Shown here: positions 47,760 through 61,926 of the stretch, in pieces | Position numbering within the stretch: the stretch's first letter is position 1 | How the letters are laid out: every line of letters starts with the position of its first letter | Source: Helicobacteraceae bacterium | GTDB taxonomy: Bacteria; Campylobacterota; Campylobacteria; Campylobacterales; Sulfurimonadaceae | Direction: 5' to 3' | DNA length: 64,000 nucleotides | NCBI GenBank assembly: GCA_027038835.1 | Contig: JALWGC010000011.1 | Span: 12,837 to 76,836, forward strand | Notes under the pieces: generated by a model | Told to the model about the DNA's origin: nothing | The model's input: only the letters and a program-made list of their open reading frames with translations | The model's database searches: none | Made by a program: the position numbers and the translations under genes

Positions 47760-48040
47760 TGGGTGATATTTTATTGGGTATAGGTGGAATCGTCATTTCG
47801 CTTATCAACGTTTATATTTGGATTATTATCATTGCCGCGCTTATCAGCTTTGTCAATCCCGACCCTTACAATCCGGTCGTACAGTTTCTCTACCGCGTAA
47901 CCAATCCGGCTTACGATTTGGTGCGTAGGTTTATGCGTACCGATTTCGGAGGGCTCGATTTCGCGCCGCTCATTATCATCATCGCGTTGCAGGTAGTTAT
48001 TGTGATTCTCACCTCCGTTATGCGTCATATCTCTTTTTAA
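47756..48040 (+). CDS. yggT: YggT family membrane protein
   Basis: 94 aa, 2-3 TM segments. ALISFVNPDPYNPVVQFLYRVTNP motif. ATGA overlap with the upstream gene. Confidence 0.8.
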   Translation: MMGDILLGIGGIVISLINVYIWIIIIAALISFVNPDPYNPVVQFLYRVTNPAYDLVRRFMRTDFGGLDFAPLIIIIALQVVIVILTSVMRHISF

Positions 48041-48050
48041 AAGGGGCGGT

Positions 48051-49649
48051 TTGCTCAAGCTTTTTTTCGTTTTCGCCTTCTTTTACGGTGCTCTTTTTGG
48101 CAGCCAAATCCCCCTTACGCTTGAAAGCTTAAAAAAGTATGAGCCCTCCAGAGCGCGCGATTTTATGGTTTGGGAGTTTTTGCAACTTCCAAACGTATCG
48201 CAAGTAGAAGCCAAAGAAGCTTTCAAACTCGTTCAAAACAAAAACAACTACAAAATAAAAAAACTCTACGCGAAAATCGTAGATGACGAAGTGAGAAAAG
48301 AGTTCGACTGTAAAAAAAGGAAAGATCTCCTTGCCATCACCGATGCGAAATGTTTGCGTTTTGCTTTTTCGTTGTATAAAACCCGCTCTCTCAACCGATT
48401 TGAACGGGAACAACTTGCCAAACGCGACTTGAGTGGATGGCAGAAAAAACTTCTTGTGCTTCAAAACGAACCCTATTCTTTCAAACGGTATCGCACATAT
48501 TCCCCCTCTTTGGTCGTCAGTTACCTTTTGACGGTGCCGAAAAAAGATTTTTACAAAAATTTCAACAAAACTTTGAGCATGGATGATGTGGCTTTTTTGC
48601 AAAAAGCATCCAATTTCCACCGCTTTGTCATGTATGTTGTCACGAACTACGATTTAAACGAACTGCAACGCTCCTTTTTCGGTATAGATGAAAAAAAACT
48701 CTCCTTCGAAACGACGTTTTACTTGGCATTGAACGCTTTGCGAAACGGCAACGAGAAAGAAGCTGCTCGCCTGTTGCGAGCGAGTGAAAAAAAAGCCAGA
48801 CATCAACGCAACATAGACAAAGTCTATTTTTGGTTGTATCAAGCTACACATGATAGAAGCTATCTTGAAACGATGCTTTTGAGTATGAGTATCAACATCT
48901 ACACCCTTTATGCACATGAAACGATGCAAGCGGATGTAGAGAACTATTTTTATGAGTTGCTGACAAACGGCGAACATTCACCGTACGACCTTCGAAATCC
49001 GTTCGATTGGGAAAAAATCATCCAAGAGATAAGAGCTACGAAACCTAACGAACTTTTCAAGCTTGCAAAAAAGTACCGTTATGACGATACATTGGCGGTT
49101 CAGCGCTTTATTGTCGAAAAAGCGTTTCGCTACAAAGCTCACGGTTACATTACACCGTACGAAAAATACCTCAAAGGATTTACAAACGACGAAAAGGCGC
49201 TTGTCTATGCGATCATGCGGCAAGAAAGTGACTATATCCCCTCTTCCATTTCACGCTCGTTCGCCCTTGGACTGATGCAGTTGATGCCTTTTTTAGTAAA
49301 GAACATCGCCAAAAAACAAAATGAAAACATCAAACGTTTCGATGAGATGTTTCAACCACGAAAAAATCTAAAATATGCGAACATCCACTTGCAATGGTTG
49401 AAAAAACTGCTTGATGATAACCCGCTTTATATAGCTTACGCTTACAACGGCGGGTATGGGTTTTTCACCCGTTACAAAGCCGGTGGACGTTTTGGCAAAG
49501 GTGTTTACGAGCCGTTTATGAGTATGGAGATGATGCAAAACGCCCAAAGTAGAGAGTATGGTAAGCGAGTGCTTGCGAATTACGTGATGTATAAAAAAAT
49601 CTACAATGAACCGTTTTCTATCGTTGCGTTTTTTCAAACGTTACGCTAG
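48051..49649 (+). CDS. slt: soluble lytic murein transglycosylase (Slt family)
   Basis: Signal peptide, superhelical N-terminal region, and an SLT catalytic motif (IMRQESDYIPSSISRSFALGLMQLMP; AYNGG). Confidence 0.85.
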   Translation: MLKLFFVFAFFYGALFGSQIPLTLESLKKYEPSRARDFMVWEFLQLPNVSQVEAKEAFKLVQNKNNYKIKKLYAKIVDDEVRKEFDCKKRKDLLAITDAKCLRFAFSLYKTRSLNRFEREQLAKRDLSGWQKKLLVLQNEPYSFKRYRTYSPSLVVSYLLTVPKKDFYKNFNKTLSMDDVAFLQKASNFHRFVMYVVTNYDLNELQRSFFGIDEKKLSFETTFYLALNALRNGNEKEAARLLRASEKKARHQRNIDKVYFWLYQATHDRSYLETMLLSMSINIYTLYAHETMQADVENYFYELLTNGEHSPYDLRNPFDWEKIIQEIRATKPNELFKLAKKYRYDDTLAVQRFIVEKAFRYKAHGYITPYEKYLKGFTNDEKALVYAIMRQESDYIPSSISRSFALGLMQLMPFLVKNIAKKQNENIKRFDEMFQPRKNLKYANIHLQWLKKLLDDNPLYIAYAYNGGYGFFTRYKAGGRFGKGVYEPFMSMEMMQNAQSREYGKRVLANYVMYKKIYNEPFSIVAFFQTLR

Positions 49650-50085
49650 CTTGCGCTTTGTTGAGAAGCTTTAGTGAAAGTTTGAGTTTCGTTGCGTTGC
49701 TTGGCTTGAACTCGACAAGGTAGTAGTGGCTCCAGTCGTTTTTGATGTCAAGCAGATGGGAAAACTCGTTTTGCGGCGGAAGCACCGTCAAAGAAAGCGG
49801 TTTTACGCCGTTAAGACTAAACTCGAGATTTTCAAGCAATCGCTTGTCTTTGGAATAAACGATGACATAGAACGTTTCTTTCTCGTACCTCTTAGGATAG
49901 ACGGCATTTAAATAGAGTGCCGATAGCACACCGCTTACTTCGTCGGCTTTGGTGATTTTTGCAAGTGTTACGTTATCGAATGCAACCTCTTGGTCTTTAA
50001 GGAGTTCAAATTTACTATAAGCGTCTTTGTCGGCACATCCGGCAAGCAAAAAAGAGACTATAAGTGTAAATACAAGCTTTTTCAT
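49618..50085 (-). CDS. lipoprotein, function unknown
   Basis: Lipobox LLAGC after a signal peptide. Converges on slt with a 32-nt overlap. Confidence 0.65.
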   Translation of the reverse strand: MKKLVFTLIVSFLLAGCADKDAYSKFELLKDQEVAFDNVTLAKITKADEVSGVLSALYLNAVYPKRYEKETFYVIVYSKDKRLLENLEFSLNGVKPLSLTVLPPQNEFSHLLDIKNDWSHYYLVEFKPSNATKLKLSLKLLNKAQASVTFEKTQR

Positions 50086-50167
50086 GTGGCTTTTCTTCTT
50101 TTTTTACGAAATTATACCATTTCGTAATCAAAGGTTTTGTATAATTTCGAAAAAACATGGTTGAAAA

Positions 50168-50665
50168 ATGAAAAAAAGATTGGCAGTAGGTTTTACGGGA
50201 CCTTCAAACAGCGGAAAAACGACGCTTATCCAAAAGATAGCAAGACGGTTGATTCACAAAGAGGGGTACGAGGTCGCCATCATAAAACACGACCCAAAAG
50301 ACAAAGCTTGGTTCGATGTCGAAGGGAAAGACAGTTACAAGTTCTACGATACCGGAGCGGAAGTGATAGTCACCTCCCCTACCCGAACGACGTACTTTTC
50401 GAACCGTCATAAAGATTTGGAAGAGATGGTACGCCTTTTTGGGCATTTCGACATTTTGCTTGTCGAAGGGTTGAAAAATCTCCCTCTTCCCAAAATCGGA
50501 GTGTTTCGAAACGAACTTGATGAAGAGTACTTCGAGTACATGAAAGCCATAGCGGTCGATGAAAGCATAGACGCGACCACCATTCCGACCGACCTCGATA
50601 TACTCGATCTGAACAATATAAACGAAGTGATCGAATGGATACTAAAAAACGCAAAGGAAGTATGA
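50168..50665 (+). CDS. mobB: molybdopterin-guanine dinucleotide biosynthesis adaptor MobB
   Basis: P-loop [12 protein letters not shown] motif, 165 aa. Confidence 0.85.
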
Positions 50666-51519
50666 TGAACCACGATTTAGACGCCATTTTCGAAGCGATC
50701 CAAAAAAGCGCGAAACGGATCAAAGAAGCCATAGACGTAAAAGATATAGGTTACTCCCAAAGTGCCAACAGTTCGGGAGAAACACAGCTTGAACTCGACA
50801 TCAAATGCGACATGATCATAGAAGAGGAGTTCAGCAAGGTCGATTTGGTTCATACCATAGCAAGCGAAGAAAAAGAACACGCCGATAAACTGCATGACAA
50901 TGGACGTTACTTCATAGCTTACGATCCGCTTGACGGCTCTTCGCTTATAGATGTAAATTTGAGCGTGGGGAGTATTTTTGGCATTTACGACGGTGACTTT
51001 GGAACCGACAAAATGGTTGCCGCGTGTTATGTGGTGTATGGACCTAGGGTAGAGATGGTTTTTGCTTATAATAAAGTCAAACTTTACCTACTTCAAGCCG
51101 ATGAATTCGAGTTCGTCAAGGAGATTCGCCTAAACGAAAAAGGGAAACTCATGGCTCCGGGAGGCACGCAACAGCACTGGCCGACTTATCACAAAGAGAT
51201 GATAGACGGCTTCTTCCAAGAAGGATACAGACTACGATACTCCGGAGGTATGGTGCCTGACTTGCATCAAATACTGCTAAAAGGTGGCGGTTTGTTCAGC
51301 TACCCTGCCACTACCGACAAACCAAATGGGAAATTACGACGCCTTTTTGAAGTGTTCCCTTTTGCGTTCGTTTACACGAAAGCCGGTGGAATGGCCATAG
51401 ACGGTAAACAAGAGTTGCTAACCCTTGGTTATAACGGCGTACATGACACCAGTCCGTGTTTTTTCGGTTCGCGATACGAAGTAGAACGTGTCAAAGAGGT
51501 GTATAGTCAAAATGGCTGA
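50662..51519 (+). CDS. fbp: class 1 fructose-1,6-bisphosphatase
   Basis: ATG 50662 overlaps the mobB stop (ATGA). Motifs [11 protein letters not shown] and YSGGMVPD. Confidence 0.9.
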
Positions 51520-51718
51520 ACAAGCACAAAAAGAGCTCGATGAATTCGAGCTCCATTTGGAAAAAATGCTTAACAAATTAAGAGAATGTCAAAACGAAAA
51601 AGGGTTTGAAACCTGCTCCGCTTGTGAAGTTTTTTTGGAGTGTGAACTTAGAAAACAGTACGTCGATGCGGTGTACAACTCGATGAGCAAGGGAGATACC
51701 GGGGGATTCGAGTTTTAA
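51512..51718 (+). CDS. small Cys-containing conserved hypothetical (68 aa)
   Basis: ATG 51512 overlaps the fbp stop by 8 nt. CxxC-like spacing ([10 protein letters not shown]). Occupies the position of the small ORF between fbp and metS in C. jejuni, as far as I recall. Confidence 0.5.
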
Positions 51719-51812
51719 CGGTTGAGTTGAGAAATATTTGAGCCGCAGGGTCAAATATAACTCTGCAATGATTTCAAGGAAACATCCCTACGGGAGTGCT
51801 TCGCTTGTTTTG

Positions 51813-52097
51813 TTAGATGTAACCCCACTTTTTAAATTTATCTTTTAATTTGATATCATTTTCAAATGCTCTGTAATATAAATACTCTGGAGCTAAATCT
51901 AATTCATCATTCCATTTTATAGTGTAATCAACTGTAAAATTTTTAAATTTTTCTATGTCTTGAAGTTGTCTGAACGGTTTTAATTTTCCATCTAAAATAA
52001 AATCTTTTAAATCGACAACTCCCTTTTTATGGTCATTAAATTCTATTACAATTTTATAATCATCTTGATATTCTGCATCTACTACACTCAACATCAT
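51813..52097 (-). CDS. DUF2442 domain protein
   Basis: 94 aa. N-terminus (VVDAEYQDDYKIVIEFNDHKKGVVDL) and DLAPEYLY near the C-terminus fit the DUF2442 pattern. Confidence 0.7.
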   Translation of the reverse strand: MMLSVVDAEYQDDYKIVIEFNDHKKGVVDLKDFILDGKLKPFRQLQDIEKFKNFTVDYTIKWNDELDLAPEYLYYRAFENDIKLKDKFKKWGYI

Positions 52098-52114
52098 TTA
52101 ATCCTTTAACTAAA

Positions 52115-52357
52115 CTAAAGGTTCAATTTTTTTATATTCTCCTGTTTCTTTCTTTGTAGCAATTCTTCTTGATGATCTTCTGCCCATTCTACAACTAAAC
52201 CCAAGACTTTTGAAGGTAATCTTCCTTCTATTACTCCAAAAGTTTTAATATCAATTGAAGCTCTATAATCATTATATTCGACATGAAAATGTGGAGGATT
52301 ATGTTCATTAAAATACATAAATATTTTAATACCTAAAAATCTACTAATTTCTGGCAT
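52115..52357 (-). CDS. DUF4160 domain protein
   Basis: 80 aa. MPEISRFLGIKIFMYFNEHNPPHFHVEY is the characteristic DUF4160 N-terminus. Lies 17 nt upstream of the DUF2442 gene. Confidence 0.75.
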   Translation of the reverse strand: MPEISRFLGIKIFMYFNEHNPPHFHVEYNDYRASIDIKTFGVIEGRLPSKVLGLVVEWAEDHQEELLQRKKQENIKKLNL

Positions 52358-52482
52358 TCATTTCCTTGTAAAATTATTCTTACTGATTGTAGCAAAATTA
52401 CTTTTAAAATATCATCTAACGATCGACTTCACCGACAGGTTTACCTGTTCTGTGCAAGGATTTGTTATGTAATAGTTGCAAA

Positions 52483-55400
52483 TTACCCATCTTCTAATAT
52501 CTCAAATATCTGGTCTATATATTCCATTTGATTGTAATCTATTTTTTCACGTAAGTATTTAGGTATACACATTCTAAATTCTTCTAATGTTAATGGTTTG
52601 TTATTTACTAAAAGTTCAATCATTCTATCACTTAAAATTGATCTTGAATTTATCGCATATTTTTTGGAAACTATCTCTTCTCTAAATTTCAGTAATCTTT
52701 GAGTTAGAGTATCTTTATCACTAACTATACTATTTTCTCTATTATTAATATTAATTGCAGAGTTCTTGTTTGACAACCTATCGTTGGTATCCACACCTCT
52801 ATTTTCCAATATTGCTTCTTCTTTCTTAGGCTCATCCATTTCCTCTTTTATAAGCACAGCACGATTTTTAGCCTCTGCTAAAACTTTTTGTAGCCTTAAT
52901 TCTTCTTCTTTACGATGTTTAAACCAATCGGTACTCCATATTCTATGTATATGCCAACCCATACTTTCCAAAATTTCTTGGCGTATTCTGTCTCTATCTC
53001 TTGCAGATTTACTGGAATGATACCCTGCACCATCACATTCTATACCAATTATATAATTGTATGATCCCTCCACCATAACACCAATATCAATAAAGAATCC
53101 GGCTACACCAACTTGAGGATGGGCTATAAACCCCAAGGATTGTATAAACCTAATTACAGATTCTTCAAATGGGCTATCTGGTTCTTTTCCTGTTGTAGTG
53201 CCCTGTATAGATTCTACATGACCACTCTCTATATATTTGAGATAATTTCGGAGTGCCATACGTCCTCTGTTGCCTTCTGCAGGAATAATATCATTACTGA
53301 CCATTGAAGTAAACACAACAATTTTTTTTCTTGCTCTGGTAATTAAAACATTCATACGTCTCCAACCGTGATCACCATTAATCGGTCCAAAACGCTGATA
53401 TACTTTTTTACTTTCCGGATCAGGTCCATAAGTTGTACCAATATATAAAATATCCGCTTCATCACCCTGAACATTTTCAAGATTCTTGATGAAAAACTTT
53501 CCTTTATTAATAGCTAAATCGAGCAAACGTCTGATATTTATATCTTCTTTTGTTTTTTCTTCCAATAATCTATCAATTAGCTCTGCTTGCTTTTTATTCA
53601 TTGCAACAGCACCAAGACTATCTACGGGATTAGATTTTAAATGTTCACAAATAGCATCAACAATAGCAATGGCTTCATTAGTATTTTTTTGTTCCTTGAA
53701 GAATCCATTAGAAATAAATTTTCTGCTTATCCCTACTTGTGAAGTATCTCGTTCAGGTGATGGAAAAATCATTAACTCACTATCGTAAAAATGATGATTT
53801 GAAAATGCAATTAGACTTTCATGTCGTGATCTATAGTGCCATTTCAATCTTTTAACATGTGGGTAGACACGAAGCATCAAATCTAAAATTGATTCTGCTG
53901 ATGTTACAACTGTTTCATCCTGTATATCATCCTCTTTCATGCTAGAAGAAAAAAAGTTAGTAGGAGGTAACTGGTTTGGGTCCCCTACTACAACAACTTG
54001 TTTCGCACGGGCTATGGCACCCAGTGAATCTTCTGGAAAAATTTGACTGGCTTCATCCATAATCATTAGATCAAAAGGTTCCTGCATAGGATCAATAAAC
54101 TGTGATACACTAAGAGGAGACATCATATAGCACGGCTTTAGAGCCCTGATAGCTTTTGAAGCTCTTTTTAATGTTTGCCGTATAGGTAAATGGCGTTTTT
54201 GTTTACGTATCTCATTTTGAATAAGCCTCATTTCTGTTTTTTCACTCACTCTACCATTTGTACCTGCAGGTACTATATTTTTAGATAATTCAAAAGCATG
54301 TTTTTTTGCATACAAACTACCAAGTTTGTTATCTAGCTCTCTAAAAATTTTTAAAGAGGTTTCATATAGATGTCTGTTAAATTGTGCAAGAACTACATTA
54401 TCTCTCAAAATTTTATGCGCCCATTCTCTGTAGTAAGCATAAAGAACAATATCTTTCAATTTATCAGCAAGATCATGTTGTACTATATATCTTAAAATTT
54501 CAGACAGCCCATAATCATTTAAAGTAGACAGTAATCTAGAAACATCTATCCAAGCTCCCAACTCAGCAGTATTTGTAATTTTTTCCTCTAAAATTGCATA
54601 TCTCGTATTAAATTCTTTTGCATTATTAAAGAAAATATTTTCATTTATATTGACATACTGACTAATAGTGTTTTTCAAGGTTAAAAGTTCTTCCAAGATT
54701 GGTTTAGCTTTTAGTAATACTCTTACAAGAGCATCAACATAGTTCTGTTGGTCTTCTGTTTCAAATGGTTTGAGTAACTCTTCGCTGAATCCATAATCAA
54801 TCATTCTTTGTTTCCACTGGTAGGCAGAGTTGAGTTCTATAACTAAATCCAAATATTCACGTGTCTTACCTAGTGCTTTAATATTATTAAGGTCAATAGT
54901 ATCAAGACCTATTTCCTTCATTAAATATTCGCCACCATCCTTATAATAGTTTTTAAATTCTTGTAAATATTTTTCGATATGATGTCTATAATTATCCAGA
55001 ACGTTACTCATTTGTTCAGCATTTTTAGCTTTTTCTTTTATATTGATCAAGTTAAATTGTTTTTTGGCATTCTTATATTCTTTATTAAATAATTTTCCCC
55101 AGAAACTTATATCTTTGAATCCTCTCAATACCCTTGATAGTTGACGAATATTATCAATGCTCTCAACCATTTCCATATCTATTTCATCAAAAAAGCTACT
55201 CCTTTCTATCAATTCTTCCGTCTTGTGCATCAAGTTTTTAATTTTATCGATAGAAAAAGAATTAACTATTCTTAATTTTTCTGGGTCTGGATATTCGGAA
55301 AAAGCCTCACTATTATTGGCCTTGTCTATGATTTTAATCATTTCTTCTGTTTGAGGTACTACTCTGAGCAAGTTATCTTCTTCAAACAATGCGCTCATAT

Positions 55401-57027
55401 TCTGAAGTTTGTCTCTATACTCTTGCAAAAGTTCAATAATAACTCCAGTATCTAGGGAAATTGCATTTGTAGTTTCCAATCCATTCCATCTGGAATTTAA
55501 TATTCCTTGATTTTCTTTTATTAACAGTTCTAATGCACCTAGTTCGTTTTTAAGATCTTGGAGCATTTTTTGATCAATATTTAAAAATTTGTTTTCAGAA
55601 GGTACATTTAAAAAAGCTTCTTGCTCTCTATTTAATACTTCACCAAAAATAATATATGGAGTTTGTCCAATGATTTCTTGTGGTGTATGCAACACATTCA
55701 AATAATCGTTAATCCTTTGTTTAATGTGTTCAATATTTTCTATAGACTGTTCTAATTCATCTGAAGACAAAGAAACCTCTAAATCAACTCTTTCTCTAAG
55801 TGATGTATAAAAATTTGCTTTATTTGCTTTATGTGAATGTAGCTCCAAAATAAAATTACCCAGTCCTACTGCATCCAAACGCTTTTTTACAACTTCGAGA
55901 GCTACAAGTTTTTCAGCAACAAATAAAACACTTTTTCCCTCCGATAAAGCTACAGCAATAAGATTCGCAATGGTTTGACTTTTACCGGTTCCCGGGGGTC
56001 CTTCAATAATCAAATTATGCCCCCGCATTACCTGTGCAATCGCATCACGTTGAGATCCATCCGCATCCATGACCAAGCCCAAGTTTTCTGTCTCATCTTC
56101 AGGAATTTCTTCAAAAACCATAGATTGTTCTGGGGAGTCTATTTCTCCTGCTATTTCGGCTAAAATAGGATGTTCTTCTATTTTTCTATCTTCTGGCCAA
56201 TTTGAAGATTCTAAATCAAGATACATCAAAAGTTTATTAAATTGAAAAAAGTCTAATGCAAACCTACGGCTTACCCCAATAAGGTTTTTATTGTTCTCGC
56301 AAATATGATTTATTTTTTTGAAATATTCTTCAGGCGTATCTTCTTCGTTAAAGTCTGGCAACTTTATACCAAACTCATGATTTATTTTATGACGCAACGA
56401 AATATTAGAAACAAGATCTTCCCCAGTATATACAAGATTATAAGTATATACCCCAGTAACTTTATCTGGTTTACCACGTTCAATCTGTACCGGTATGAGT
56501 ATTAACGGAGAATTCAATATTTTTTCAGAATTTATAGACTGCTTCCACTGTAAAAATCCAATAGCAAGATAAAGAATATTTGTACCTTTTTCTTGTATTG
56601 CCGAGTTTGCATCGGATCTTCGTTTTCTCAACATTTGTTCAAGGGCATCTGGGTAATGTAATGTCTGAATAGCATTATCAGTATGTTTATCTAACAAAAT
56701 TCCTGAATCATTTTCTACAAATGGTACTTCTTCGTCAATTGATATACCAAGTATTTGGGCATGCTTTTTAGCAGATATAAAACCACTAACTTCATCCATT
56801 TCTTCATTTTGAATATTCTCTTCAGATTCATCAATTTCAGGATATGGCACAGGTTCAAATTTCATTATTTCAGCGTCTAATAACTTTTTATACATAACAT
56901 TAGGCAATTCATCTACAATGATTAACCTATTTTTACGTTTCAAGTTATAATTAATAAGAGGATTTCGCAAAGACAAATCCAACAATTTTTTTCTAGATTC
57001 ATCTAATAGCTTTTTTACTTCAGACAT
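52483..57027 (-). CDS. 1514-aa DUF4011-like / Upf1-like SF1 helicase fused to a DUF559 (Vsr-like, PD-(D/E)xK) nuclease and a DUF3320-like tail
   Basis: N-terminus LLDLSLRNPLINY...ILYLAIGFLQW (DUF4011-like). Walker A GPPGTGKS (aa 343-350, nt 55978-56001). Walker B/motif II MDEASQ (aa 990-995). Motif III GDPNQLPP, QGDEAD, and VLITRARKKIVVF. Nuclease block FFIDIG...IGIECDGAGYH...RDRIRQEILESMGWHIHRIW (aa ~1285-1370, nt 52918-53175). Confidence 0.8.
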   Translation of the reverse strand: MSEVKKLLDESRKKLLDLSLRNPLINYNLKRKNRLIIVDELPNVMYKKLLDAEIMKFEPVPYPEIDESEENIQNEEMDEVSGFISAKKHAQILGISIDEEVPFVENDSGILLDKHTDNAIQTLHYPDALEQMLRKRRSDANSAIQEKGTNILYLAIGFLQWKQSINSEKILNSPLILIPVQIERGKPDKVTGVYTYNLVYTGEDLVSNISLRHKINHEFGIKLPDFNEEDTPEEYFKKINHICENNKNLIGVSRRFALDFFQFNKLLMYLDLESSNWPEDRKIEEHPILAEIAGEIDSPEQSMVFEEIPEDETENLGLVMDADGSQRDAIAQVMRGHNLIIEGPPGTGKSQTIANLIAVALSEGKSVLFVAEKLVALEVVKKRLDAVGLGNFILELHSHKANKANFYTSLRERVDLEVSLSSDELEQSIENIEHIKQRINDYLNVLHTPQEIIGQTPYIIFGEVLNREQEAFLNVPSENKFLNIDQKMLQDLKNELGALELLIKENQGILNSRWNGLETTNAISLDTGVIIELLQEYRDKLQNMSALFEEDNLLRVVPQTEEMIKIIDKANNSEAFSEYPDPEKLRIVNSFSIDKIKNLMHKTEELIERSSFFDEIDMEMVESIDNIRQLSRVLRGFKDISFWGKLFNKEYKNAKKQFNLINIKEKAKNAEQMSNVLDNYRHHIEKYLQEFKNYYKDGGEYLMKEIGLDTIDLNNIKALGKTREYLDLVIELNSAYQWKQRMIDYGFSEELLKPFETEDQQNYVDALVRVLLKAKPILEELLTLKNTISQYVNINENIFFNNAKEFNTRYAILEEKITNTAELGAWIDVSRLLSTLNDYGLSEILRYIVQHDLADKLKDIVLYAYYREWAHKILRDNVVLAQFNRHLYETSLKIFRELDNKLGSLYAKKHAFELSKNIVPAGTNGRVSEKTEMRLIQNEIRKQKRHLPIRQTLKRASKAIRALKPCYMMSPLSVSQFIDPMQEPFDLMIMDEASQIFPEDSLGAIARAKQVVVVGDPNQLPPTNFFSSSMKEDDIQDETVVTSAESILDLMLRVYPHVKRLKWHYRSRHESLIAFSNHHFYDSELMIFPSPERDTSQVGISRKFISNGFFKEQKNTNEAIAIVDAICEHLKSNPVDSLGAVAMNKKQAELIDRLLEEKTKEDINIRRLLDLAINKGKFFIKNLENVQGDEADILYIGTTYGPDPESKKVYQRFGPINGDHGWRRMNVLITRARKKIVVFTSMVSNDIIPAEGNRGRMALRNYLKYIESGHVESIQGTTTGKEPDSPFEESVIRFIQSLGFIAHPQVGVAGFFIDIGVMVEGSYNYIIGIECDGAGYHSSKSARDRDRIRQEILESMGWHIHRIWSTDWFKHRKEEELRLQKVLAEAKNRAVLIKEEMDEPKKEEAILENRGVDTNDRLSNKNSAININNRENSIVSDKDTLTQRLLKFREEIVSKKYAINSRSILSDRMIELLVNNKPLTLEEFRMCIPKYLREKIDYNQMEYIDQIFEILEDG

Positions 57028-57250
57028 ATCTTCCCTTAACTACTCAGTTTGACTAGCTTTTATCTTTACATAACTATTTATTAACTCACATTTTACGTAT
57101 TTTTGTCCGAAAAGTCAATATTAACACTACATATTTTTATATGTTAATCGTTTATAATTCTTAAAGAATCTATAATTGACAATCTTTTTAACTATAACGA
57201 AACTAAAAGGATAGTTTAGATAGAATTTCTAAAAATTCTTCAAACGGGGA

Positions 57251-59191
57251 TTGAAATTGAGCAAATACATCACGACTCCTATCTACTATGTCAACGGTGA
57301 AGCGCACATTGGGCATGCCTACACCACTTTTATAGCCGATACCATAGCGCGGTACGAGCGGCTAAAGGGTGAAGAGACGTTTTTCTTGACAGGAACGGAC
57401 GAGCATGGGCAAAAGATCGAAGAGTCCGCGAAAAAAGCGGGTAAACCTACACAAGAGTTCGCCGATGAAATAAGCGCTACATTCAAAAATCTTTGGGACG
57501 AGTTCGGCATCAGTTACGACAAGTTCATCCGCACGACGGACGAAGCGCATAAGCAAGGGGTACAAAAAGCGTTTTTGAAGATGTTTGAAAAAGGTGACAT
57601 CTACAAAGGTGAGTATGAAGGGCATTACTGTGTGAGTTGCGAAGCGTTCTTTCCGGAAACCCAGTTGGTTGACGGTGAGTTTTGTCCCGACTGCGGCAGA
57701 AGCACGACCGTAGTACAAGAAGAGAGTTACTTTTTCAAACTTTCGAATTACGAGCAAAAACTACTGGAGTATTACGAAACGCATCCCGATTTCATCTTAC
57801 CGAAATCACGTGCCAACGAAGTTATAAATTTCGTCAAAGGAGGACTTAGAGACCTCTCGGTCACTCGAACCTCTTTTAGCTGGGGTGTGCCGCTTCCAAA
57901 AGAGATAAACGACCCAAAACATGTCATGTATGTATGGCTCGATGCGTTGCTCAACTATGTAACGGCACTTGGCTACGGACAAGATGACGAAAGCTTGATG
58001 GAGAAGTTCTGGCCTGCGGACATCCACCTCGTTGGAAAAGATATTTTACGTTTTCATGCCATCTACTGGCCGGCATTTTTGATGAGTTTGGAGCTTCCTT
58101 TACCCAAACATATAGCTGCTCATGGGTGGTGGACGAGAGACGGCGAAAAAATGAGTAAATCAAAAGGGAACGTGGTCAACCCTAAAGAGGTCGCCGATGC
58201 GTACGGAGTGGAAAATTTGCGCTATTTCATGCTTCGTGAAGTACCGTTTGGACAAGATGGCGACTTTTCACAACGTGCATTCATAGACCGCATCAACTCC
58301 GACCTTTCCAATGACCTTGGCAACTTGCTTAACCGCATCATCGGTATGAGCGGAAAATACAGCGACTTCGTCATAGATTCCAAAGATGTCACGACTTACC
58401 ATAAAGAACAGCTCGATGCACTAAACGCTGTCATCGATACGCTCGATAGTTTCATCCAAACCGTCCAGCCTCACCGCTATCTCGAAGAGTTATGGAAACT
58501 TTTTGCCATTGGAAACGGTACCATTCAAGAAGCCGAGCCGTGGGTGAAGATGAAAAACGGGCAAAAAGATGAAGCTTTAGCTACAGTCGCGCTTGTTGCG
58601 AATATTCTCGCCAAAGCCGCTCTGCTTCTCTCACCCGTTATGCCAAATACCGCGCGAAAAATCGCCGATGCACTTAGTATCTCCATCGACAGCCAAACGT
58701 TCGAGCGTCTTGTAGTGCAAAAGGGTCTGCTTGAGACGTTCACCATAGAGAAAATCCCGCCGCTTTTTCCAAAGATAGAAGAACCGCTTCTTCCTGAAGC
58801 GCCTCAAGCTCAGCCTAACACTCAAGCAAAAAGTGAGCAAAAAGAGCAACCAAAAGAGGAGGACAACCTCATAGAGATCGGTCAGTTTTTCGAAACTTCG
58901 CTCAAAGTGGGAACGGTCGTAGAAGCCCAAGAAGTACCAAAAAGTAAAAAACTCCTCAAACTGCAAGTCGATTTGGGTGAAGAAGAACCTCGCCAAATCG
59001 TCGCGGGTATCAAGGAGTTCTATTCACCGGAAAGTTTGCTCAACACCCAAGTATGTGTCGTTGCCAACCTCAAACCTGCGAAACTCATGGGAATAGTCTC
59101 ACAAGGGATGCTCCTTGCCGCTAAAGACGCAGACGGCCTTTGTCTGATACGTCCGGAAAAACCAAAACAAGCCGGAACGCCTATTGGATGA
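57251..59191 (+). CDS. metG: methionine--tRNA ligase with C-terminal tRNA-binding (Trbp111-like) domain
   Basis: HIGHAY, a CxxC..CxxC knuckle (CVSC..CPDC), KMSKS, and a C-terminal OB-fold (LKVGTVVEAQEVPKSKKLLKLQVDLG). TTG start. Confidence 0.95.
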   Translation: MKLSKYITTPIYYVNGEAHIGHAYTTFIADTIARYERLKGEETFFLTGTDEHGQKIEESAKKAGKPTQEFADEISATFKNLWDEFGISYDKFIRTTDEAHKQGVQKAFLKMFEKGDIYKGEYEGHYCVSCEAFFPETQLVDGEFCPDCGRSTTVVQEESYFFKLSNYEQKLLEYYETHPDFILPKSRANEVINFVKGGLRDLSVTRTSFSWGVPLPKEINDPKHVMYVWLDALLNYVTALGYGQDDESLMEKFWPADIHLVGKDILRFHAIYWPAFLMSLELPLPKHIAAHGWWTRDGEKMSKSKGNVVNPKEVADAYGVENLRYFMLREVPFGQDGDFSQRAFIDRINSDLSNDLGNLLNRIIGMSGKYSDFVIDSKDVTTYHKEQLDALNAVIDTLDSFIQTVQPHRYLEELWKLFAIGNGTIQEAEPWVKMKNGQKDEALATVALVANILAKAALLLSPVMPNTARKIADALSISIDSQTFERLVVQKGLLETFTIEKIPPLFPKIEEPLLPEAPQAQPNTQAKSEQKEQPKEEDNLIEIGQFFETSLKVGTVVEAQEVPKSKKLLKLQVDLGEEEPRQIVAGIKEFYSPESLLNTQVCVVANLKPAKLMGIVSQGMLLAAKDADGLCLIRPEKPKQAGTPIG

Positions 59192-60192
59192 GGCTTGAAA
59201 ACGTCGTCGCACTTACTTCCGCGCAGCTTCTTACCACACCCGAAGTAAGTGTGTTTCAAAAGATACTTTTCGATCCAGCCAAAGTGAAGCGCGGAGATCT
59301 TTTCGTCGCAATCGAGAGTGACGACATCTCTCTTGCTTTACAAAACGGCGCGTACGGTGTGTTGTTCGAAAAGCAGGCACAAATCTCCGATACCGAAGTA
59401 GCATGGATAAAAGTCAAAAATCTAAACGATGCCCTTTTACGTTTGCTTCGTTTCCGTTTTATCGAACTCGAGCTTGAGGCGTATGCCTGTGATAGCGTCG
59501 TTTTGGAGCTTGCCAAGCAGATAGACACTTCCGAAGAGATCGTCGTCATAGACGGAAATATACAAGAACTTGTGAAGCGTTTTTGGGACTTGCCGCCAAA
59601 GACAAAAGCGCTTTTTTGTCCTAAAAAACTCTCAAGCGATCTTTTCATAGACCCAAAACAACTTACCGACATCGCAAAGTACCCTATCGAAGTGGTTGAA
59701 AAAACCCTGTTTGAAACATCGTTTATATTCGACGACAGATACTACGAGCGCATCGCATTGTCTGCCTTTTTCATCCCCTATTTGCAAAAGCTTCTGAACT
59801 TCTACAAAACGCTTGACGTTTCGTTCGGGCTGCGTGGGTTTGAAAACCTCCCCCACTTCGAAATCGTTTTCGCGACAAAAAATCTCACTCCGACACAAAC
59901 GGGAGCGAGCGAAACGGTTTTGATATTCGAGCGTGATATGGAGTTTGTAGAAGATGCGATGGAGTATTTACAAAAAGAGATGCGATGGGCGAAGCTCCTT
60001 TTTTTGCTTCCAAGAAGTTTCGAAGCGAGCGATTGCCCTGTTTGTCGCTATTACGATACAACAAGAGAAGTGTTCAACATCCTCAAAACTACGCCGTTTC
60101 ACTTCGCGCTCGTTTGCGGTAGCGGAAGTGAGATTTTAAACGAAGAAAAAGAAACCGCAGAACCGAAACAACTGACATTCGAGTTGATTTAA
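59188..60192 (+). CDS. hypothetical protein with MurF-N-terminal-like domain but no P-loop
   Basis: ATG 59188 overlaps the metG stop (ATGA). The first ~80 aa resemble the Mur ligase N-domain (FDPAKVKRGDLFVAIESDD..ALQNGAYGVLFE). No GxxGKT motif follows. Confidence 0.45.
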   Translation: MRLENVVALTSAQLLTTPEVSVFQKILFDPAKVKRGDLFVAIESDDISLALQNGAYGVLFEKQAQISDTEVAWIKVKNLNDALLRLLRFRFIELELEAYACDSVVLELAKQIDTSEEIVVIDGNIQELVKRFWDLPPKTKALFCPKKLSSDLFIDPKQLTDIAKYPIEVVEKTLFETSFIFDDRYYERIALSAFFIPYLQKLLNFYKTLDVSFGLRGFENLPHFEIVFATKNLTPTQTGASETVLIFERDMEFVEDAMEYLQKEMRWAKLLFLLPRSFEASDCPVCRYYDTTREVFNILKTTPFHFALVCGSGSEILNEEKETAEPKQLTFELI

Positions 60193-60216
60193 ACCAGAGA
60201 AACAAAAGGAAAGAAA

Positions 60217-60747
60217 ATGAAAAAAATATTACTCTCAAGTATGCTTGCACTCAGCCTTTTTGGCTATGAAGCGAACAATGTTCATATCGAATTCAAAGCG
60301 TTCAAAACTCCACTAAAAAAAGGGGTAGAAGGAACTTTCGACAATATAATTTTACATTCACACAAGGCGAAAAACTTCAAAGAAGCACTCCTTGAAACCG
60401 CCGTTACTATCGATACATCGTCCGTAAACAGTAAAAACACCCAAAGGGACGAAAAACTCGTAGCATCTTTTTTCGATATCCAAGGGGTGAAAAAAATCGA
60501 AGCCAAAATAATCAAGGTAGAGAAAAAAATCCTTGTAGTGGCGATAACGATGAACGATAAAACCCTCAATATACCGTTTAAATACGAAAAAGAGTTTCGG
60601 GAAGTGGAAGCCGAAGGTGTCATAGACCTTGCCGATTTCGACATGCTTCCTTCACTACAATCGATAAACAAAGCGTGTTACGATTTGCATCAGGGGAAAA
60701 CTTGGCAAGATGTCGAGTTGGAATTCGAGCTTACATTTGATAAATAG
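60217..60747 (+). CDS. YceI-like periplasmic polyisoprenoid-binding protein
   Basis: Signal peptide. FKAFKT..VEGTF and DTSSVNSKNTQRDEKL motifs of the YceI family. Confidence 0.8.
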   Translation: MKKILLSSMLALSLFGYEANNVHIEFKAFKTPLKKGVEGTFDNIILHSHKAKNFKEALLETAVTIDTSSVNSKNTQRDEKLVASFFDIQGVKKIEAKIIKVEKKILVVAITMNDKTLNIPFKYEKEFREVEAEGVIDLADFDMLPSLQSINKACYDLHQGKTWQDVELEFELTFDK

Positions 60748-60791
60748 CACTTTTTTAAAGTATAATTCACTATCTAACTTTGGGAAAGAAA

Positions 60792-61922
60792 ATGGATAGA
60801 CGAAAATTTTTGCTCACTTCGACTGCAGTCGGTGCGACGGTTTTGAGTTTGGATGGATGCAACGACAGCAATAGGGTCGCCATAGATTACTCCAAACACC
60901 CCAAACATACCGATAAAAAAGCGGTATATATCAACAAAGGAAAGAAAACCACCATCAAACTAGCCACATCATGGCCGGCGCATTTTCCAATCATGGGAGA
61001 AGGCGTGGAGGCGTTCGCAGCGCGTCTGGATGCTATAAGCGGCGGGTCGCTGAAGGTGAAGCTCTATCCGAAAAACGTTCTCGTTCCGGCACTTGCGGTA
61101 TTCGATGCTACAAGCAGCGGGCAGATAGACGCTTTTCACTCCGGTCCATACTACTGGAAAGGGAAAAACAGTGCGTTTTCCCTTTTTAGCGGGATTCCGT
61201 TTGGTTTCGATGCGGAAGAGATAAACTCTTGGATGATTTACGGTGAGGGGTTGCAACTTTGGCGTGAGCTTTACGCACGTTACAACCTCTACCCGCTTCT
61301 TGGAGGCAATACCAACATCCAAATGGGAGGCTGGTTCAGAAAAGAGATAAAATCGCTTGCGGATATGCAAGGATTGAAAATGCGAATACCGGGCCTTGGC
61401 GGTGAGGTTATGGCGAAACTCGGGGTAAATCCGGTTTTGTTGCCTGCAGGAGAGATTTACACTTCACTCGAGCGCGGCGTAATAGACGCTACGGAGTGGG
61501 TCGGACCGGCACTCGATATCAAAATGGGCTTTTACAAAGTCGCTCCGTACTACTACAGCGGGTGGCATGAACCCGGAAGTATTCTCGAGCTTACTTTCAA
61601 CAAAGCGTTTTGGGACAAGCTTTCCGATGAGCAGAAACAGATGATAGACGTGTGCTCAAGCGAAATGAACGCCAACATGACCTACCGTTTCCATTACGAA
61701 AATATCCATACGTTAAAAACACTCAAAGAAAAAGGGGTAAAATTAAGAAAATTCCCCGATGAAGTAACGCAAGCAGGGAAAAAAGCACTTGGAGAAGTAG
61801 TAGCTCAATTAAGCGCGAAAAACAAAGAGTTCGAACGGGTGTACGAATCTATCGCCAAGCATCTCGAACTTTCAAAAGAGTTCGCAGATATCAGCTTGAA
61901 ATATTTTCTCGATATCCGATAA
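60792..61922 (+). CDS. TRAP-type transporter substrate-binding protein (DctP family) with Tat signal
   Basis: Twin-arginine signal MDRRKFLLTSTAVGATVL and a DctP-like body. No DctQ/DctM genes are adjacent. Confidence 0.75.
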   Translation: MDRRKFLLTSTAVGATVLSLDGCNDSNRVAIDYSKHPKHTDKKAVYINKGKKTTIKLATSWPAHFPIMGEGVEAFAARLDAISGGSLKVKLYPKNVLVPALAVFDATSSGQIDAFHSGPYYWKGKNSAFSLFSGIPFGFDAEEINSWMIYGEGLQLWRELYARYNLYPLLGGNTNIQMGGWFRKEIKSLADMQGLKMRIPGLGGEVMAKLGVNPVLLPAGEIYTSLERGVIDATEWVGPALDIKMGFYKVAPYYYSGWHEPGSILELTFNKAFWDKLSDEQKQMIDVCSSEMNANMTYRFHYENIHTLKTLKEKGVKLRKFPDEVTQAGKKALGEVVAQLSAKNKEFERVYESIAKHLELSKEFADISLKYFLDIR

Positions 61923-61926
61923 ACCC

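What the first reader, a model, noticed from the sequence alone, without database searches (positions are those of the whole stretch)
52483..57027. Single 1514-aa polypeptide: DUF4011-like N-domain, split Upf1-like SF1 helicase with a ~590-aa insertion, DUF559/Vsr-like nuclease, DUF3320-like tail
**Directly readable motifs:**
- Walker A GPPGTGKS at aa 343-350
- Motif II MDEASQ only at aa 990-995
- GDPNQLPP
- QGDEAD
- VLITRARKKIVVF

The two RecA-like halves are therefore separated by roughly 590 aa of Lys/Glu/Asn-rich, probably coiled-coil sequence (aa ~400-985).

**Nuclease block.** Downstream, FFIDIG...IGIECDGAGYH...RDRIRQEILESMGWHIHRIW is the classic DUF559/Vsr-type PD-(D/E)xK signature (D...ExD/K), with intact acidic residues.

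**Possible named relative.** I recall a single-gene defence candidate called Hhe (helicase + Vsr-like endonuclease) from the 2020 large-scale defence screen. This protein may be a distant member of that family or a new variant. I cannot decide that without profile searches.

**Weak motif.** An Rx4H string (RHKINH, aa 212-217) sits in the N-domain. It is too short to call HEPN.
Basis: partly seen in the sequence, partly recalled or inferred. Interest (0 to 1): 0.7.

Follow-up and report, generated by a model that had tools for sequence, protein, structure and literature searches.

The report
Short-insertion Hhe-like helicase-nuclease defence gene
This 1514-residue protein is an intact relative of the known single-gene anti-phage helicase-nuclease Hhe, carried on a 5.5 kb piece of foreign DNA inserted between two housekeeping genes of a Sulfurimonas-like bacterium; it is a further lineage of a known kind of system, not a new kind.

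Summary
The ORF is real: minus strand, 52483-57027, 1514 aa.

**Domains found**
- DUF4011 N-domain.
- Upf1-like SF1B helicase whose first RecA domain is split by an all-helical module of about 560 aa.
- Vsr-fold nuclease (Pfam MTES_1575).
- Small helical tail that looks HRDC-like, not DUF3320.

**Family placement**
- The helicase and nuclease residues are conserved in 39 aligned homologs. The RHKINH string is not.
- The protein belongs to the Hhe / ProA (PDC-S37) superfamily but scores below both curated NCBIfam cut-offs.
- Module by module it is closer to Hhe, including the tail.
- Its Walker A to motif II spacing is 648 aa, against about 940 aa in canonical Hhe.
- Residues 400-815 resemble neither family.

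**Genomic setting**
- Sister genomes have about 70 bp where this genome has the gene plus a DUF4160/DUF2442 pair. The gene's GC is 32% against 42% for the window.
- Close homologs sit in defence islands, and in six of ten contexts just downstream of a type I hsdR.

**Verdict**
This is a horizontally acquired, single-gene defence helicase-nuclease. The mechanism is inferred, not shown. It is a new member of a known kind, of modest interest.

The parts
52483..57027 (-). Whole ORF, 1514 aa plus stop codon: Hhe-like helicase-nuclease
   Evidence: ORF and translation. Family scans. Full-length homologs at 54-98% identity.
57090..57118 (-). Promoter-like site TTGACT-17-TAAAAT, about 60 nt upstream of the ATG, in the 223-bp region shared with the divergent metG
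   Evidence: Consensus scan, 10 of 12 matches. Such sites are not enriched over shuffles, so this is only a candidate.
56386..56988 (-). DUF4011 N-terminal domain (aa 14-214). The wider N-region aa 1-320 is modelled as alpha/beta with mean pLDDT 86.5.
   Evidence: Pfam DUF4011 at 1.9e-35. AF2 model. No significant fold match in PDB or BFVD.
55831..56067 (-). First part of RecA1 (aa 321-399), with Walker A GPPGTGKS (aa 343-350, nt 55978-56001) and motif Ia
   Evidence: Invariant in homologs. 71% identical to Klebsiella Hhe.
54583..55830 (-). Lineage-specific all-helical insertion (aa 400-815)
   Evidence: AF2: all alpha, pLDDT about 90. Matched over its whole length only by same-clade proteins and a few others. 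No significant BLASTP similarity to Hhe or ProA. No Pfam family.
54073..54582 (-). Superfamily-conserved helical module preceding motif II (aa 816-985). The all-helical part ends near aa 963; short strands follow.
   Evidence: Most of the 3689 hits of the insertion-only search align only here. 28-34% identity to Hhe and ProA. AF2 secondary structure.
53218..54072 (-). Rest of RecA1 plus RecA2 (aa 986-1270): motif II MDEASQ, motif III GDPNQLPP, QGDEAD, motif VI VLITRAR
   Evidence: Pfam AAA_11 and AAA_12. Motifs conserved. Foldseek hits to Dna2, SETX, IGHMBP2 and UPF1 at E 1e-8 to 1e-10.
52885..53169 (-). Vsr-fold PD-(D/E)xK-type endonuclease domain (aa 1287-1381), with D1314, E1330, D1332, H1337, D1346/D1348 and R1362
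   Evidence: Pfam MTES_1575 at 6.7e-33; RAP at 3.5e-5; DUF559 only 0.0083. Residues conserved in nearly all of 39 aligned homologs. alpha-beta3-alpha-beta core in the model.
52720..52845 (-). Low-confidence linker (aa 1395-1436)
   Evidence: pLDDT 31-51 in the AF2 model.
52486..52719 (-). C-terminal five-helix domain (aa 1437-1514), HRDC-like, homologous to the Hhe tail
   Evidence: Pfam HRDC sub-threshold: E = 0.0031 on aa 1386-1514 and 0.0013 on an 84-aa tail segment. 12 of 28 homolog tails hit HRDC; none hits DUF3320. 35-36% identical to Klebsiella Hhe tails and no hit to the ProA tail. Profile search of PDB gave nothing significant.
51720..57253 (.). 5.5 kb inserted islet between a conserved small ORF downstream of the FBPase gene and metG. 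It carries the helicase-nuclease gene and the DUF4160/DUF2442 pair.
   Evidence: Synteny with L015, L016 and L017 breaks at window 51718/51719 and resumes at 57254-57256. Those genomes have about 60-72 bp there. GC is 29-35% in the islet against 41-47% in the flanks.
51813..52357 (-). Co-inserted small gene pair: DUF4160 (52115-52357) and DUF2442 (51813-52097). Not found next to any of the homologs examined.
   Evidence: Pfam at 4.3e-24 and 9.8e-14. PHROG families of unknown function. Absent from the contexts seen.

Best explanation
The gene encodes a stand-alone, horizontally acquired defence enzyme of the Hhe superfamily. It joins an ATP-driven Upf1-like (SF1B) translocase to a Vsr-fold endonuclease.

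**Proposed working (inferred, not shown)**
- The motor loads on single-stranded regions of invading DNA, such as replication or recombination intermediates, and moves 5'->3'.
- The HRDC-like tail adds nucleic-acid contacts.
- The C-terminal Vsr-type nuclease nicks or cuts the tracked DNA.
- The DUF4011 domain and the large helical module inserted in RecA1 act as the sensing or autoinhibitory scaffold. Its fast-diverging part (aa 400-815) would set what is recognised or which phage inhibitors are evaded.
- Activation stops phage replication, possibly at a cost to the host.

**Shown here**
- Domain composition.
- Intact and conserved catalytic residues.
- Superfamily membership.
- The insertion-islet origin.
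- The defence-island context of homologs.

**Taken from work on E. coli Hhe**
- It has anti-phage activity.
- That activity depends on a nuclease-domain residue.

**Inferred only**
- Substrate, polarity, trigger and the role of the insertion.
For: **Architecture and family**
- Pfam finds DUF4011, AAA_11/AAA_12 and MTES_1575.
- PADLOC gives PDC-S37 1188 bits and Hhe 924 bits.
- NCBIfam gives Hhe 1333 bits, aligned to the very end of the model, and ProA 1059 bits.

**Conservation**
- Walker A and motifs II, III, V and VI are conserved in 29 clade members and 10 Hhe proteins.
- So are the nuclease residues D1314, E1330, D1332 and H1337, apart from three divergent clade members.

**Structure**
- The helicase is nearest to Sen1, IGHMBP2, Dna2 and UPF1 by sequence.
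- It is nearest to Dna2, SETX, IGHMBP2, Sen1 and UPF1 by predicted fold.

**Module-wise similarity**
- The protein is closer to Klebsiella Hhe than to ProA, including the tail.

**Horizontal acquisition**
- Gene GC is 32% against 42% for the window.
- Three sister genomes have FBPase gene, small ORF, about 70 bp, then metG, with no islet.

**Defence context of close homologs**
- Neighbours include type I R-M, Hachiman, Abi_2, an MmeI-like enzyme, a WYL protein, a PLD+SNF2 pair, caspase-like genes and integrases.
- No partner gene is conserved across contexts.

**Experiments on E. coli Hhe**
- It is active against lambda, T3, T7 and PhiV-1. The E1731A change in the nuclease domain abolishes defence (bioRxiv 10.1101/2022.06.16.496414).
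- T7 DNA-metabolism genes behave as potential triggers, and Bas63 g40 is toxic only with hhe (PMC11482910).
- A phage anti-hhe gene exists.
Against: - No experiment exists on this protein or its clade.
- It scores below the curated equivalog cut-offs of both named families, so transfer of function is by homology, not by membership.
- The window locus is not a defence island. It holds one gene plus a DUF4160/DUF2442 pair among housekeeping genes.
- Upf1-like helicases often act on RNA, and the nuclease domain also matches the RNA-associated RAP family. DNA as the substrate is therefore not established.
- The mechanism of Hhe itself is unknown in the literature I could search.
- The PhageMaP authors suggest a link to NAD+ or adenine depletion, which a simple DNA-cutting model does not explain.
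- The DUF4011 fold gave no structural clue.
Confidence: 0.75

Rival explanations
1. RNA-targeting enzyme. The Upf1-like motor tracks phage or host RNA, and the Vsr/RAP-like domain cleaves RNA, shutting down translation. This is the mode proposed for the CoCoNuT CnuH helicases.
For: - The nearest solved relatives include the RNA helicases UPF1, IGHMBP2, Sen1/SETX, Aquarius, nsp13 and ZNFX1.
- Pfam RAP scores 24.2 bits, exactly its cut-off, over aa 1319-1376.
- The CoCoNuT paper argues that Vsr-like and related nucleases fused to UPF1-like helicases may target RNA (PMC11090510).
Against: - The top fold hit is the DNA enzyme Dna2.
- Vsr and restriction-type nucleases of this fold are DNA enzymes (Anantharaman 2013).
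- Potential triggers for E. coli Hhe are phage DNA-metabolism genes.
- The recurrent neighbours are DNA-targeting R-M systems.
- No McrBC-like CnuB/C, HEPN or SmpB-like partner lies nearby.
Confidence: 0.12
2. Accessory of type I restriction-modification. In this clade the protein works together with HsdR, for example by processing DNA translocated or cut by the restriction complex. The copy in this window would then be an orphan with reduced or no function.
For: - In six of ten examined contexts of the close clade, a type I hsdR lies upstream on the same strand.
- It is 9-73 bp away in L001, L002, L006 and L007.
- One or two genes intervene in L003 and L021.
- These HsdR proteins are only 26-34% identical to each other, so the linkage is not one recently copied island.
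Against: - Four of ten contexts, including this window, have no R-M nearby.
- Type I R-M loci in these contigs also host unrelated defence genes such as Hachiman, Abi_2 and an AAA_15/21 ATPase. Co-location may only reflect island structure.
- Canonical Hhe works as a single gene.
- The orphan copy is fully intact, and a 98%-identical copy exists in another sample.
Confidence: 0.1
3. Housekeeping DNA repair or replication helicase-nuclease, Dna2-like or AddAB-like, of the host.
For: The helicase-plus-nuclease layout and the Dna2 top fold hit.
Against: - The gene is absent from the syntenic locus of three sister genomes.
- Its GC is 10 points below that of the host.
- The closest named relatives are in Arcobacteraceae, a different family of the same phylum.
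- Homologs lie in variable defence or mobile contexts.
- The helical insertion diverges rapidly.
Confidence: 0.03

Closest known systems
Hhe (single-gene helicase + Vsr endonuclease defence system; NCBIfam NF042953, PADLOC PDLC02194; first reported by Gao et al. 2020, which I could not read here)
   Same: - Same order of modules: DUF4011, split Upf1-like helicase, MTES_1575/Vsr nuclease, linker, small helical tail.
- Identity to Klebsiella Hhe is 71% in RecA1, about 50% in the helicase core, 61-63% in the nuclease and 35-36% in the tail.
- The match runs to the last position of the NCBIfam model.
- Single gene with no conserved partner.
   Different: - It scores 1333 bits against a cut-off of 2000. 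True Hhe proteins score 2576-2643.
- Walker A to motif II spacing is 648 aa against 938-942 aa.
- Residues 400-815 have no significant similarity to the Hhe insertion.
- It forms a separate clade in a neighbour-joining tree of the core, without bootstrap.
ProA (NCBIfam NF058533), equivalent to PADLOC candidate PDC-S37
   Same: - DUF4011, helicase with a short insertion (spacing 628 aa in the Azospirillum member), Vsr nuclease.
- PDC-S37 is the best PADLOC hit and aligns in one piece over aa 1-1465.
   Different: - It scores 1059 bits against a cut-off of 1500, and 1188 bits on PDC-S37 against 1895 for a true member.
- The true member has a DUF3320 tail that this protein lacks. The alignment stops at model position 1416 of 1550, and BLASTP finds no similarity between the tails.
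- Every conserved module except the nuclease (about 61-63% to both) is less similar to ProA than to Hhe.
- I could not find the paper that named ProA.
CoCoNuT type III-B CnuH (UPF1-like helicase with a fused Vsr-like nuclease; PMC11090510)
   Same: UPF1-like SF1 helicase with a large helical insertion after Walker A and a directly fused Vsr-like nuclease.
   Different: - CnuH is defined by its association with McrB/McrC homologs (CnuB/C) and a coiled-coil protein. None is present here.
- That description mentions no DUF4011.
- No sequence comparison was run.
Eukaryotic and viral Upf1-like SF1B helicases (Dna2, SETX/Sen1, IGHMBP2, UPF1)
   Same: - RecA1/RecA2 core and motifs.
- Foldseek E 2e-10 to 1e-8; sequence hits.
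- Dna2 also joins a nuclease to the motor.
- From my knowledge of UPF1 structures, the insertion lies between motifs Ia and II, where UPF1 has its small helical domain 1C.
   Different: - Only 13-20% identity over about 300-480 aligned columns.
- The insertion is roughly ten times larger than domain 1C.
- The nuclease is a different fold family placed C-terminally, whereas Dna2 has an N-terminal RecB-type nuclease.
- The DUF4011 and HRDC-like modules are absent from these proteins.
Mokosh MkoA/MkoC
   Same: Share the Upf1-like helicase core (PADLOC 85 and 75 bits).
   Different: The match covers the helicase only. No DUF4011 or Vsr module matches. Not a member.
Other helicase-nuclease defence systems (Hachiman HamAB, Druantia DruE/DruH, Hna): analogues in logic only
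   Same: A helicase that senses or processes aberrant or forked DNA is coupled to a nuclease effector (abstracts).
   Different: Different helicase superfamilies and nucleases. They are multi-protein or differently built. No homology beyond the P-loop.

Membership tests
Hhe | N-terminal DUF4011 domain | tested here: met
   Pfam PF13195 at 1.9e-35, aa 14-214, covering profile positions 1-157 of 158.
Hhe | SF1 Upf1-like helicase with intact Walker A and motifs II, III, V and VI | tested here: met
   Motifs present and conserved. AAA_11 and AAA_12. Fold hits to Dna2, SETX and UPF1.
Hhe | C-terminal Vsr-fold (MTES_1575) nuclease with conserved acidic and His residues | tested here: met
   PF18741 at 6.7e-33. 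D1314, E1330, D1332 and H1337 conserved in nearly all of 39 homologs.
Hhe | Hhe-type C-terminal tail | tested here: met
   Aligned to position 1797 of 1797 of NF042953. 35-36% identity to Klebsiella Hhe tails.
Hhe | Whole-protein score at or above the NCBIfam equivalog cut-off (2000 bits) | tested here: not met
   1333 bits in two stretches. True Hhe proteins score 2576-2643.
Hhe | Long helical insertion (Walker A to motif II about 940 aa) homologous to that of canonical Hhe | tested here: not met
   Spacing is 648 aa. Residues 400-815 have no significant similarity to Hhe.
Hhe | Acts as a single gene, with no conserved partner | tested here: met
   Neighbours differ in all ten contexts. hsdR recurs but is not universal.
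Hhe | Protects against phage; activity needs the nuclease residue | not testable with these tools
   Known only for E. coli Hhe. E1731 probably equals the ECDG glutamate (E1330 here), but I could not map it exactly. That Glu is at 1719 and 1727 in two Klebsiella Hhe proteins.
ProA / PDC-S37 | Whole-protein score at or above the NCBIfam ProA cut-off (1500 bits) | tested here: not met
   1059.5 bits. The Azospirillum member scores 1570.
ProA / PDC-S37 | DUF3320 C-terminal domain | tested here: not met
   No DUF3320 hit at E<=1. The PDC-S37 alignment ends at position 1416 of 1550. No tail similarity to the Azospirillum protein.
ProA / PDC-S37 | Best PADLOC model with an end-to-end alignment | tested here: inconclusive
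   It is the best hit at 1188 bits and in one stretch. True Hhe proteins score 1265-1310 on the same model, and a true member scores 1895.
DUF559 / Vsr (Pfam PF04480) | Match above the gathering score | tested here: not met
   16.4 bits against a cut-off of 20.6, E = 0.0083. The related model MTES_1575 is the proper family.
HEPN | Conserved Rx4-6H motif in a helical domain | tested here: not met
   RHKINH is not conserved. Most clade members have Q..Y, and the 98%-identical P0001 has N in place of H.
CoCoNuT type III-B | Adjacent McrB/McrC-like CnuB/CnuC genes | tested here: not met
   The neighbours are an FBPase gene, DUF2442, DUF4160 and metG.
Upf1-like SF1B helicases | RecA1/RecA2 fold and motifs of the clade | tested here: met
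HRDC domain (tail) | Pfam HRDC above the gathering score, or a structural match | tested here: inconclusive
   17.9-19.1 bits against a cut-off of 23.8. 12 of 28 homolog tails hit HRDC at E<=0.1. The model shows five helices. A profile search of PDB was not significant.

The most novel reading that the evidence does not exclude
The short-insertion clade to which this gene belongs may be a functionally distinct Hhe relative that is mechanistically coupled to type I restriction enzymes. It could be loaded on, or triggered by, DNA that HsdR translocates or cuts. Its lineage-specific helical module (aa 400-815) and the structurally unassigned DUF4011 domain would mediate that coupling. The copy here would then be an orphan that has become autonomous.
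Probability: 0.1. Interest if true: 0.55.

Novelty: new member of a known kind. Interest (0 to 1): 0.3.

Why it matters
**What the result adds**
- The protein carries the same Pfam families as the Hhe homologs listed, and every conserved module aligns with Hhe or ProA. The finding does not add a new kind of system.
- It shows that the superfamily holds lineages that curated models do not name. This one falls below both the Hhe and ProA cut-offs, and PADLOC's best hit for it is PDC-S37, although it is closer to Hhe module by module.
- The large helical insertion is the part that varies, from 513 to 1194 aa between Walker A and motif II. That makes it the natural candidate for the specificity or regulatory element of an enzyme whose mechanism is still unknown.
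- The clean insertion site, with empty sites in sister genomes, documents recent horizontal transfer of a defence gene into a Sulfurimonas-like bacterium. The donor resembled Arcobacteraceae in composition.

**Leads for later work**
- The repeated placement of clade members after type I hsdR.
- The absence of any structural match for DUF4011.

Both are leads, not results.

Tried and rejected
- **HEPN reading of RHKINH.** Rejected because the motif is not conserved.
- **DUF3320 tail.** Rejected.
- **Fold assignment of DUF4011.** Foldseek against PDB and BFVD gave nothing: best E 0.16 and 0.028, TM about 0.1-0.2. The alpha-beta3-alpha-alpha-beta order recalls restriction-endonuclease cores, but no D/ExK-type residues are conserved and BbvCI hits were at E about 0.7. 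I do not claim it.
- **HRDC identity of the tail.** A profile search of PDB was not significant; the best relevant hit was 3cym at E = 1.1.
- **Mobility signatures at the islet borders.**
  - No direct or inverted repeat of at least 10 bp.
  - No tRNA within window 44000-64000.
  - No integrase in the islet.
- **Exact-sequence look-up of the protein.** It failed, although the window is identical to ENA scaffold L014 over the 8.5 kb I compared, window 50001-58500.
- **Genome-representative scan.** It returned only 7 loci and not the source genome.
- **Literature.**
  - No mechanistic paper on Hhe was found.
  - No paper naming ProA or describing PDC-S37 was found.
  - Gao et al. 2020 is not held.
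- **Mapping E1731 of E. coli Hhe onto this protein.** Only approximate.
- **Membership in PDC-S37 from the high PADLOC score.** Rejected once a true member was scored.
- **Phage origin.** Only three weak matches among 50,697 phage records.

Full report
**Observation**

The window holds one long ORF at 52483..57027 on the minus strand. It runs from ATG to stop and encodes 1514 aa. A GGGAAG stretch lies just upstream of the ATG. A promoter-like site, TTGACT-17-TAAAAT, lies at 57118-57090 on the minus strand, although such sites are not enriched in the region. Chance is excluded by the domain scores and by thousands of homologs.

**Anatomy**

- *Pfam domains.*
  - DUF4011 covers aa 14-214 at 1.9e-35.
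  - P-loop helicase N-terminal models cover aa 324-385.
  - AAA_11 resumes at aa 925-1023, and AAA_12 covers aa 1046-1240.
  - REase_MTES_1575 covers aa 1287-1381 at 6.7e-33.
  - DUF559 itself is sub-threshold at 0.0083, and RAP sits exactly at its cut-off.
- *MTES_1575.* It was defined as a Vsr-fold restriction-type nuclease (PMC3710099).
- *N-region model.* AlphaFold2 with a 96-sequence alignment modelled aa 1-320 at mean pLDDT 86.5.
- *Model of the rest.* The same method modelled aa 320-1514 at mean pLDDT 84.5 and pTM 0.65.
- *RecA1 and the insertion.*
  - In the second model, RecA1 begins at aa 339-396 with Walker A and motif Ia.
  - A confident all-alpha region follows from about aa 403 to 963. 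Its helices are 4-36 residues long and pLDDT is about 90.
  - The chain then returns to the RecA1 strands carrying motif II (985-990) and motif III.
- *Position of the insertion.* It lies between motifs Ia and II. From my knowledge of UPF1 structures, that is where UPF1 has its small domain 1C.
- *Nuclease core.* The model shows an alpha-beta-beta-beta-alpha-beta core. D1314 starts the second strand, and E1330-x-D1332 ends the third.
- *Tail.* A low-confidence linker (aa 1395-1436) leads to a five-helix domain (aa 1437-1513).

**Helicase class**

Sequence search of PDB finds only Sen1, IGHMBP2, Dna2 and UPF1. Foldseek with the model finds Dna2, SETX, IGHMBP2, Sen1, UPF1, Aquarius, nsp13 and ZNFX1 at E 2e-10 to 4e-6. 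This is an SF1B Upf1-like motor. No Hhe-type structure appeared among the PDB matches, in copies reaching 2026.

**Unknown parts**

- The DUF4011 model has no significant match in PDB (best E 0.16) or in predicted viral structures (best E 0.028).
- The insertion has no Pfam family.
- The tail gives a sub-threshold HRDC match: E = 0.0031 on aa 1386-1514 and 0.0013 on an 84-aa tail segment.
  - HRDC is by far the most recurrent family when 28 homolog tails are scanned singly. 12 hit it, with a best E of 5.4e-4.
  - DUF3320 never appears.
  - A profile search of PDB was not significant.
  - I therefore call the tail HRDC-like with moderate confidence.

**Conservation**

I aligned 29 clade members and 10 Hhe proteins.
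- Walker A, motifs II, III, V and VI are essentially invariant.
- So are the nuclease residues D1314, E1330, D1332, H1337, D1346/D1348 and R1362, apart from a few substitutions in the most divergent clade members.
- RHKINH is not conserved.

**Family placement**

- *Scores of the query.*
  - PADLOC gives PDC-S37 1188 bits in one stretch (aa 1-1465 onto positions 1-1416 of 1550) and Hhe 924 bits.
  - NCBIfam gives Hhe 1333 bits against a cut-off of 2000, and ProA 1059 bits against a cut-off of 1500.
- *Calibration.*
  - True Hhe proteins score 1968-2643 on the Hhe models. They also score 1265-1310 on PDC-S37.
  - A 'DUF3320 domain-containing protein' on an Azospirillum plasmid scores 1895 on PDC-S37 end to end. 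It also passes the ProA cut-off at 1570 bits.
- *Conclusion on the named families.* PDC-S37 and ProA are thus the same family. Its members pair a short insertion with a DUF3320 tail. The query belongs to neither curated family.
- *Module by module.*
  - RecA1 is 71% identical to Klebsiella plasmid Hhe and 62% to ProA.
  - The helicase core is about 50% identical to Hhe and 41% to ProA.
  - The tail is 35-36% identical to Hhe and gives no hit to ProA.
  - Residues 400-815 match neither.
- *Spacing.* Across 206 relatives the Walker A to motif II spacing peaks at 645-650 aa (about 30 sequences, query 648) and at 900-950 aa (142 sequences). All other spacings are nearly fixed.
- *Insertion-only search.* A search of 1.84 billion representatives found 3689 hits. 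Most of the listed hits match only the last 170 residues (aa 816-985). Only same-clade proteins, two fragments and one 2230-aa protein match the whole insertion.
- *Tree.* A neighbour-joining tree of the conserved core places the query clade as one of several Hhe-like lineages. Their insertion lengths range from 513 to 1194 aa. The clade is separate from the canonical Hhe clade and from ProA. The tree has no bootstrap, so it is only indicative.

**Host and locus**

- The neighbouring genes are housekeeping genes.
- MetRS is 100% identical to a metagenomic protein and 80-81% identical to Sulfurimonas MetRS proteins. The host is therefore a Sulfurimonas-like member of Campylobacterota.
- The window is identical to ENA scaffold ERZ23491132:scaffold_164 over the 8.5 kb compared, window 50001-58500.
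- Three sister genomes have MetRS 88% identical. They keep the order FBPase gene, small ORF, metG, with only 60-72 bp between the last two.
- Here, window 51720-57253 is inserted at that spot. It carries the target gene and a DUF4160/DUF2442 pair on the opposite strand.
- GC falls to 29-35% inside the islet, against 41-47% in the flanks.
- The closest named relatives, at 61-62% identity, are from Poseidonibacter and Arcobacter. From my own knowledge these are low-GC genera.
- I found no border repeats, tRNA or integrase.

**Contexts of homologs**

- I read ten contexts of the close clade, counting this window. The neighbours vary and are mostly defence or mobility genes:
  - type I R-M with embedded Hachiman and Abi_2, or an AAA_15/21 ATPase;
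  - an MmeI-like enzyme with a WYL protein;
  - a PLD+SNF2 pair;
  - Schlafen/caspase genes;
  - RelE/Phd;
  - integrases.
- A type I hsdR lies upstream on the same strand in six contexts.
  - It is directly adjacent (9-73 bp) in four.
  - These HsdR proteins share only 26-34% identity.
- Canonical Hhe on Klebsiella plasmids sits between IS elements or after DUF262 genes.

**What is known about Hhe**

- It is listed among the single-gene systems of the 2020 screen.
- It is active against lambda, T3, T7 and PhiV-1, and not against T4. The E1731A change in the Vsr domain abolishes its weak anti-T7 activity (bioRxiv 10.1101/2022.06.16.496414).
- T7 class II DNA-metabolism genes score as potential triggers. 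Bas63 g40 is toxic only with hhe. NAD+-salvage genes and gp130 act as counters (PMC11482910).
- A PhiDruSM1 ORF65 deletion sensitises that phage to hhe.
- I found no biochemical or structural study of Hhe.

**Mechanism**

- *Best supported.* An autonomous defence helicase-nuclease.
- *Shown.* An intact SF1B motor, an intact Vsr-type nuclease, homology to an experimentally active system, foreign origin, and the defence context of relatives.
- *Inferred.*
  - Loading on single-stranded or forked phage DNA, 5'->3' translocation, and cutting by the Vsr domain.
  - The HRDC-like tail as an extra nucleic-acid grip.
  - DUF4011 together with the helical module as the sensor or autoinhibitor.
  - The fast divergence of aa 400-815 as a reflection of an arms race.
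- *Rivals.* RNA targeting, dependence on type I R-M, and a housekeeping role are weighed in the rival section.

**Verdict**

The protein is a new member, in a distinct short-insertion lineage, of the known Hhe/ProA superfamily. Interest is modest.

Noticed in passing
window 51813-52357 (minus strand): A DUF4160 (80 aa) / DUF2442 (94 aa) gene pair lies in the same low-GC inserted islet as the helicase-nuclease gene. Both match PHROG families of unknown function. The pair is not next to any homolog examined, so it may be an independent passenger, possibly toxin-antitoxin-like.
   Followed up: partly
L001:6788-9928, L002:6828-9974, L006:2-2716, L007:91-1236, L003:1-2562, L021:1-2897: A type I restriction hsdR gene (HindI-like C-terminal domain) lies upstream on the same strand of six close-clade homologs. 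It is directly adjacent in four. The HsdR proteins are only 26-34% identical to each other.
   Followed up: partly
L003:8813-14216 and L021:12544-17953: The same three-gene set lies just downstream of two different clade members: a protein of about 440 aa of unknown function, a PLDc_2 protein of 579 aa, and an SNF2-family helicase of 782 aa. It may be another defence module.
   Followed up: no
window 51512-51718 (plus strand): A small ORF of about 68 aa, with a C-x2-C ... C stretch, lies directly after the FBPase gene. It is conserved in all sister genomes at 67-69 aa. The islet was inserted immediately after its stop codon.
   Followed up: no
window 44179-46506 (minus) and 46533-47759 (plus): A Gln/Glu-type tRNA synthetase carries a C-terminal GatB/YqeY domain (775 aa). 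Next to it, divergently placed, is a 408-aa paralog with only the catalytic domain.
   Followed up: no
window 27369-30515 (minus strand): A 1048-aa protein with a YhdP-like C-terminal region (Pfam 6.2e-26). I checked it only to exclude an hsdR in the window.
   Followed up: no
phage records MT836269.1:6144-10190; PQ160474.1 and KY661963.1: An unannotated 11-kb 'Bacteriophage sp.' contig from human faeces encodes a relative at 34% identity over 67% of the query. Two Liberibacter phages carry fragmented helicase-nuclease relatives matching aa 860-1382.
   Followed up: no
literature: P. aeruginosa PA14_RS11765 (PMC10250203): A large DUF4011 gene is a conserved core gene marking the right flank of core defence hotspot 1 in every P. 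aeruginosa isolate. DUF4011 proteins are therefore not always accessory. Its relation to Hhe or ProA was not examined.
   Followed up: no
L020 (Azospirillum ramasamyi plasmid NZ_CP029830.1:476811-481601): This protein, annotated only as 'DUF3320 domain-containing protein', passes the NCBIfam ProA cut-off and is a full-length PDC-S37 match. It links the PADLOC candidate to the named family. A RecD-like helicase gene and a WYL gene lie nearby.
   Followed up: partly
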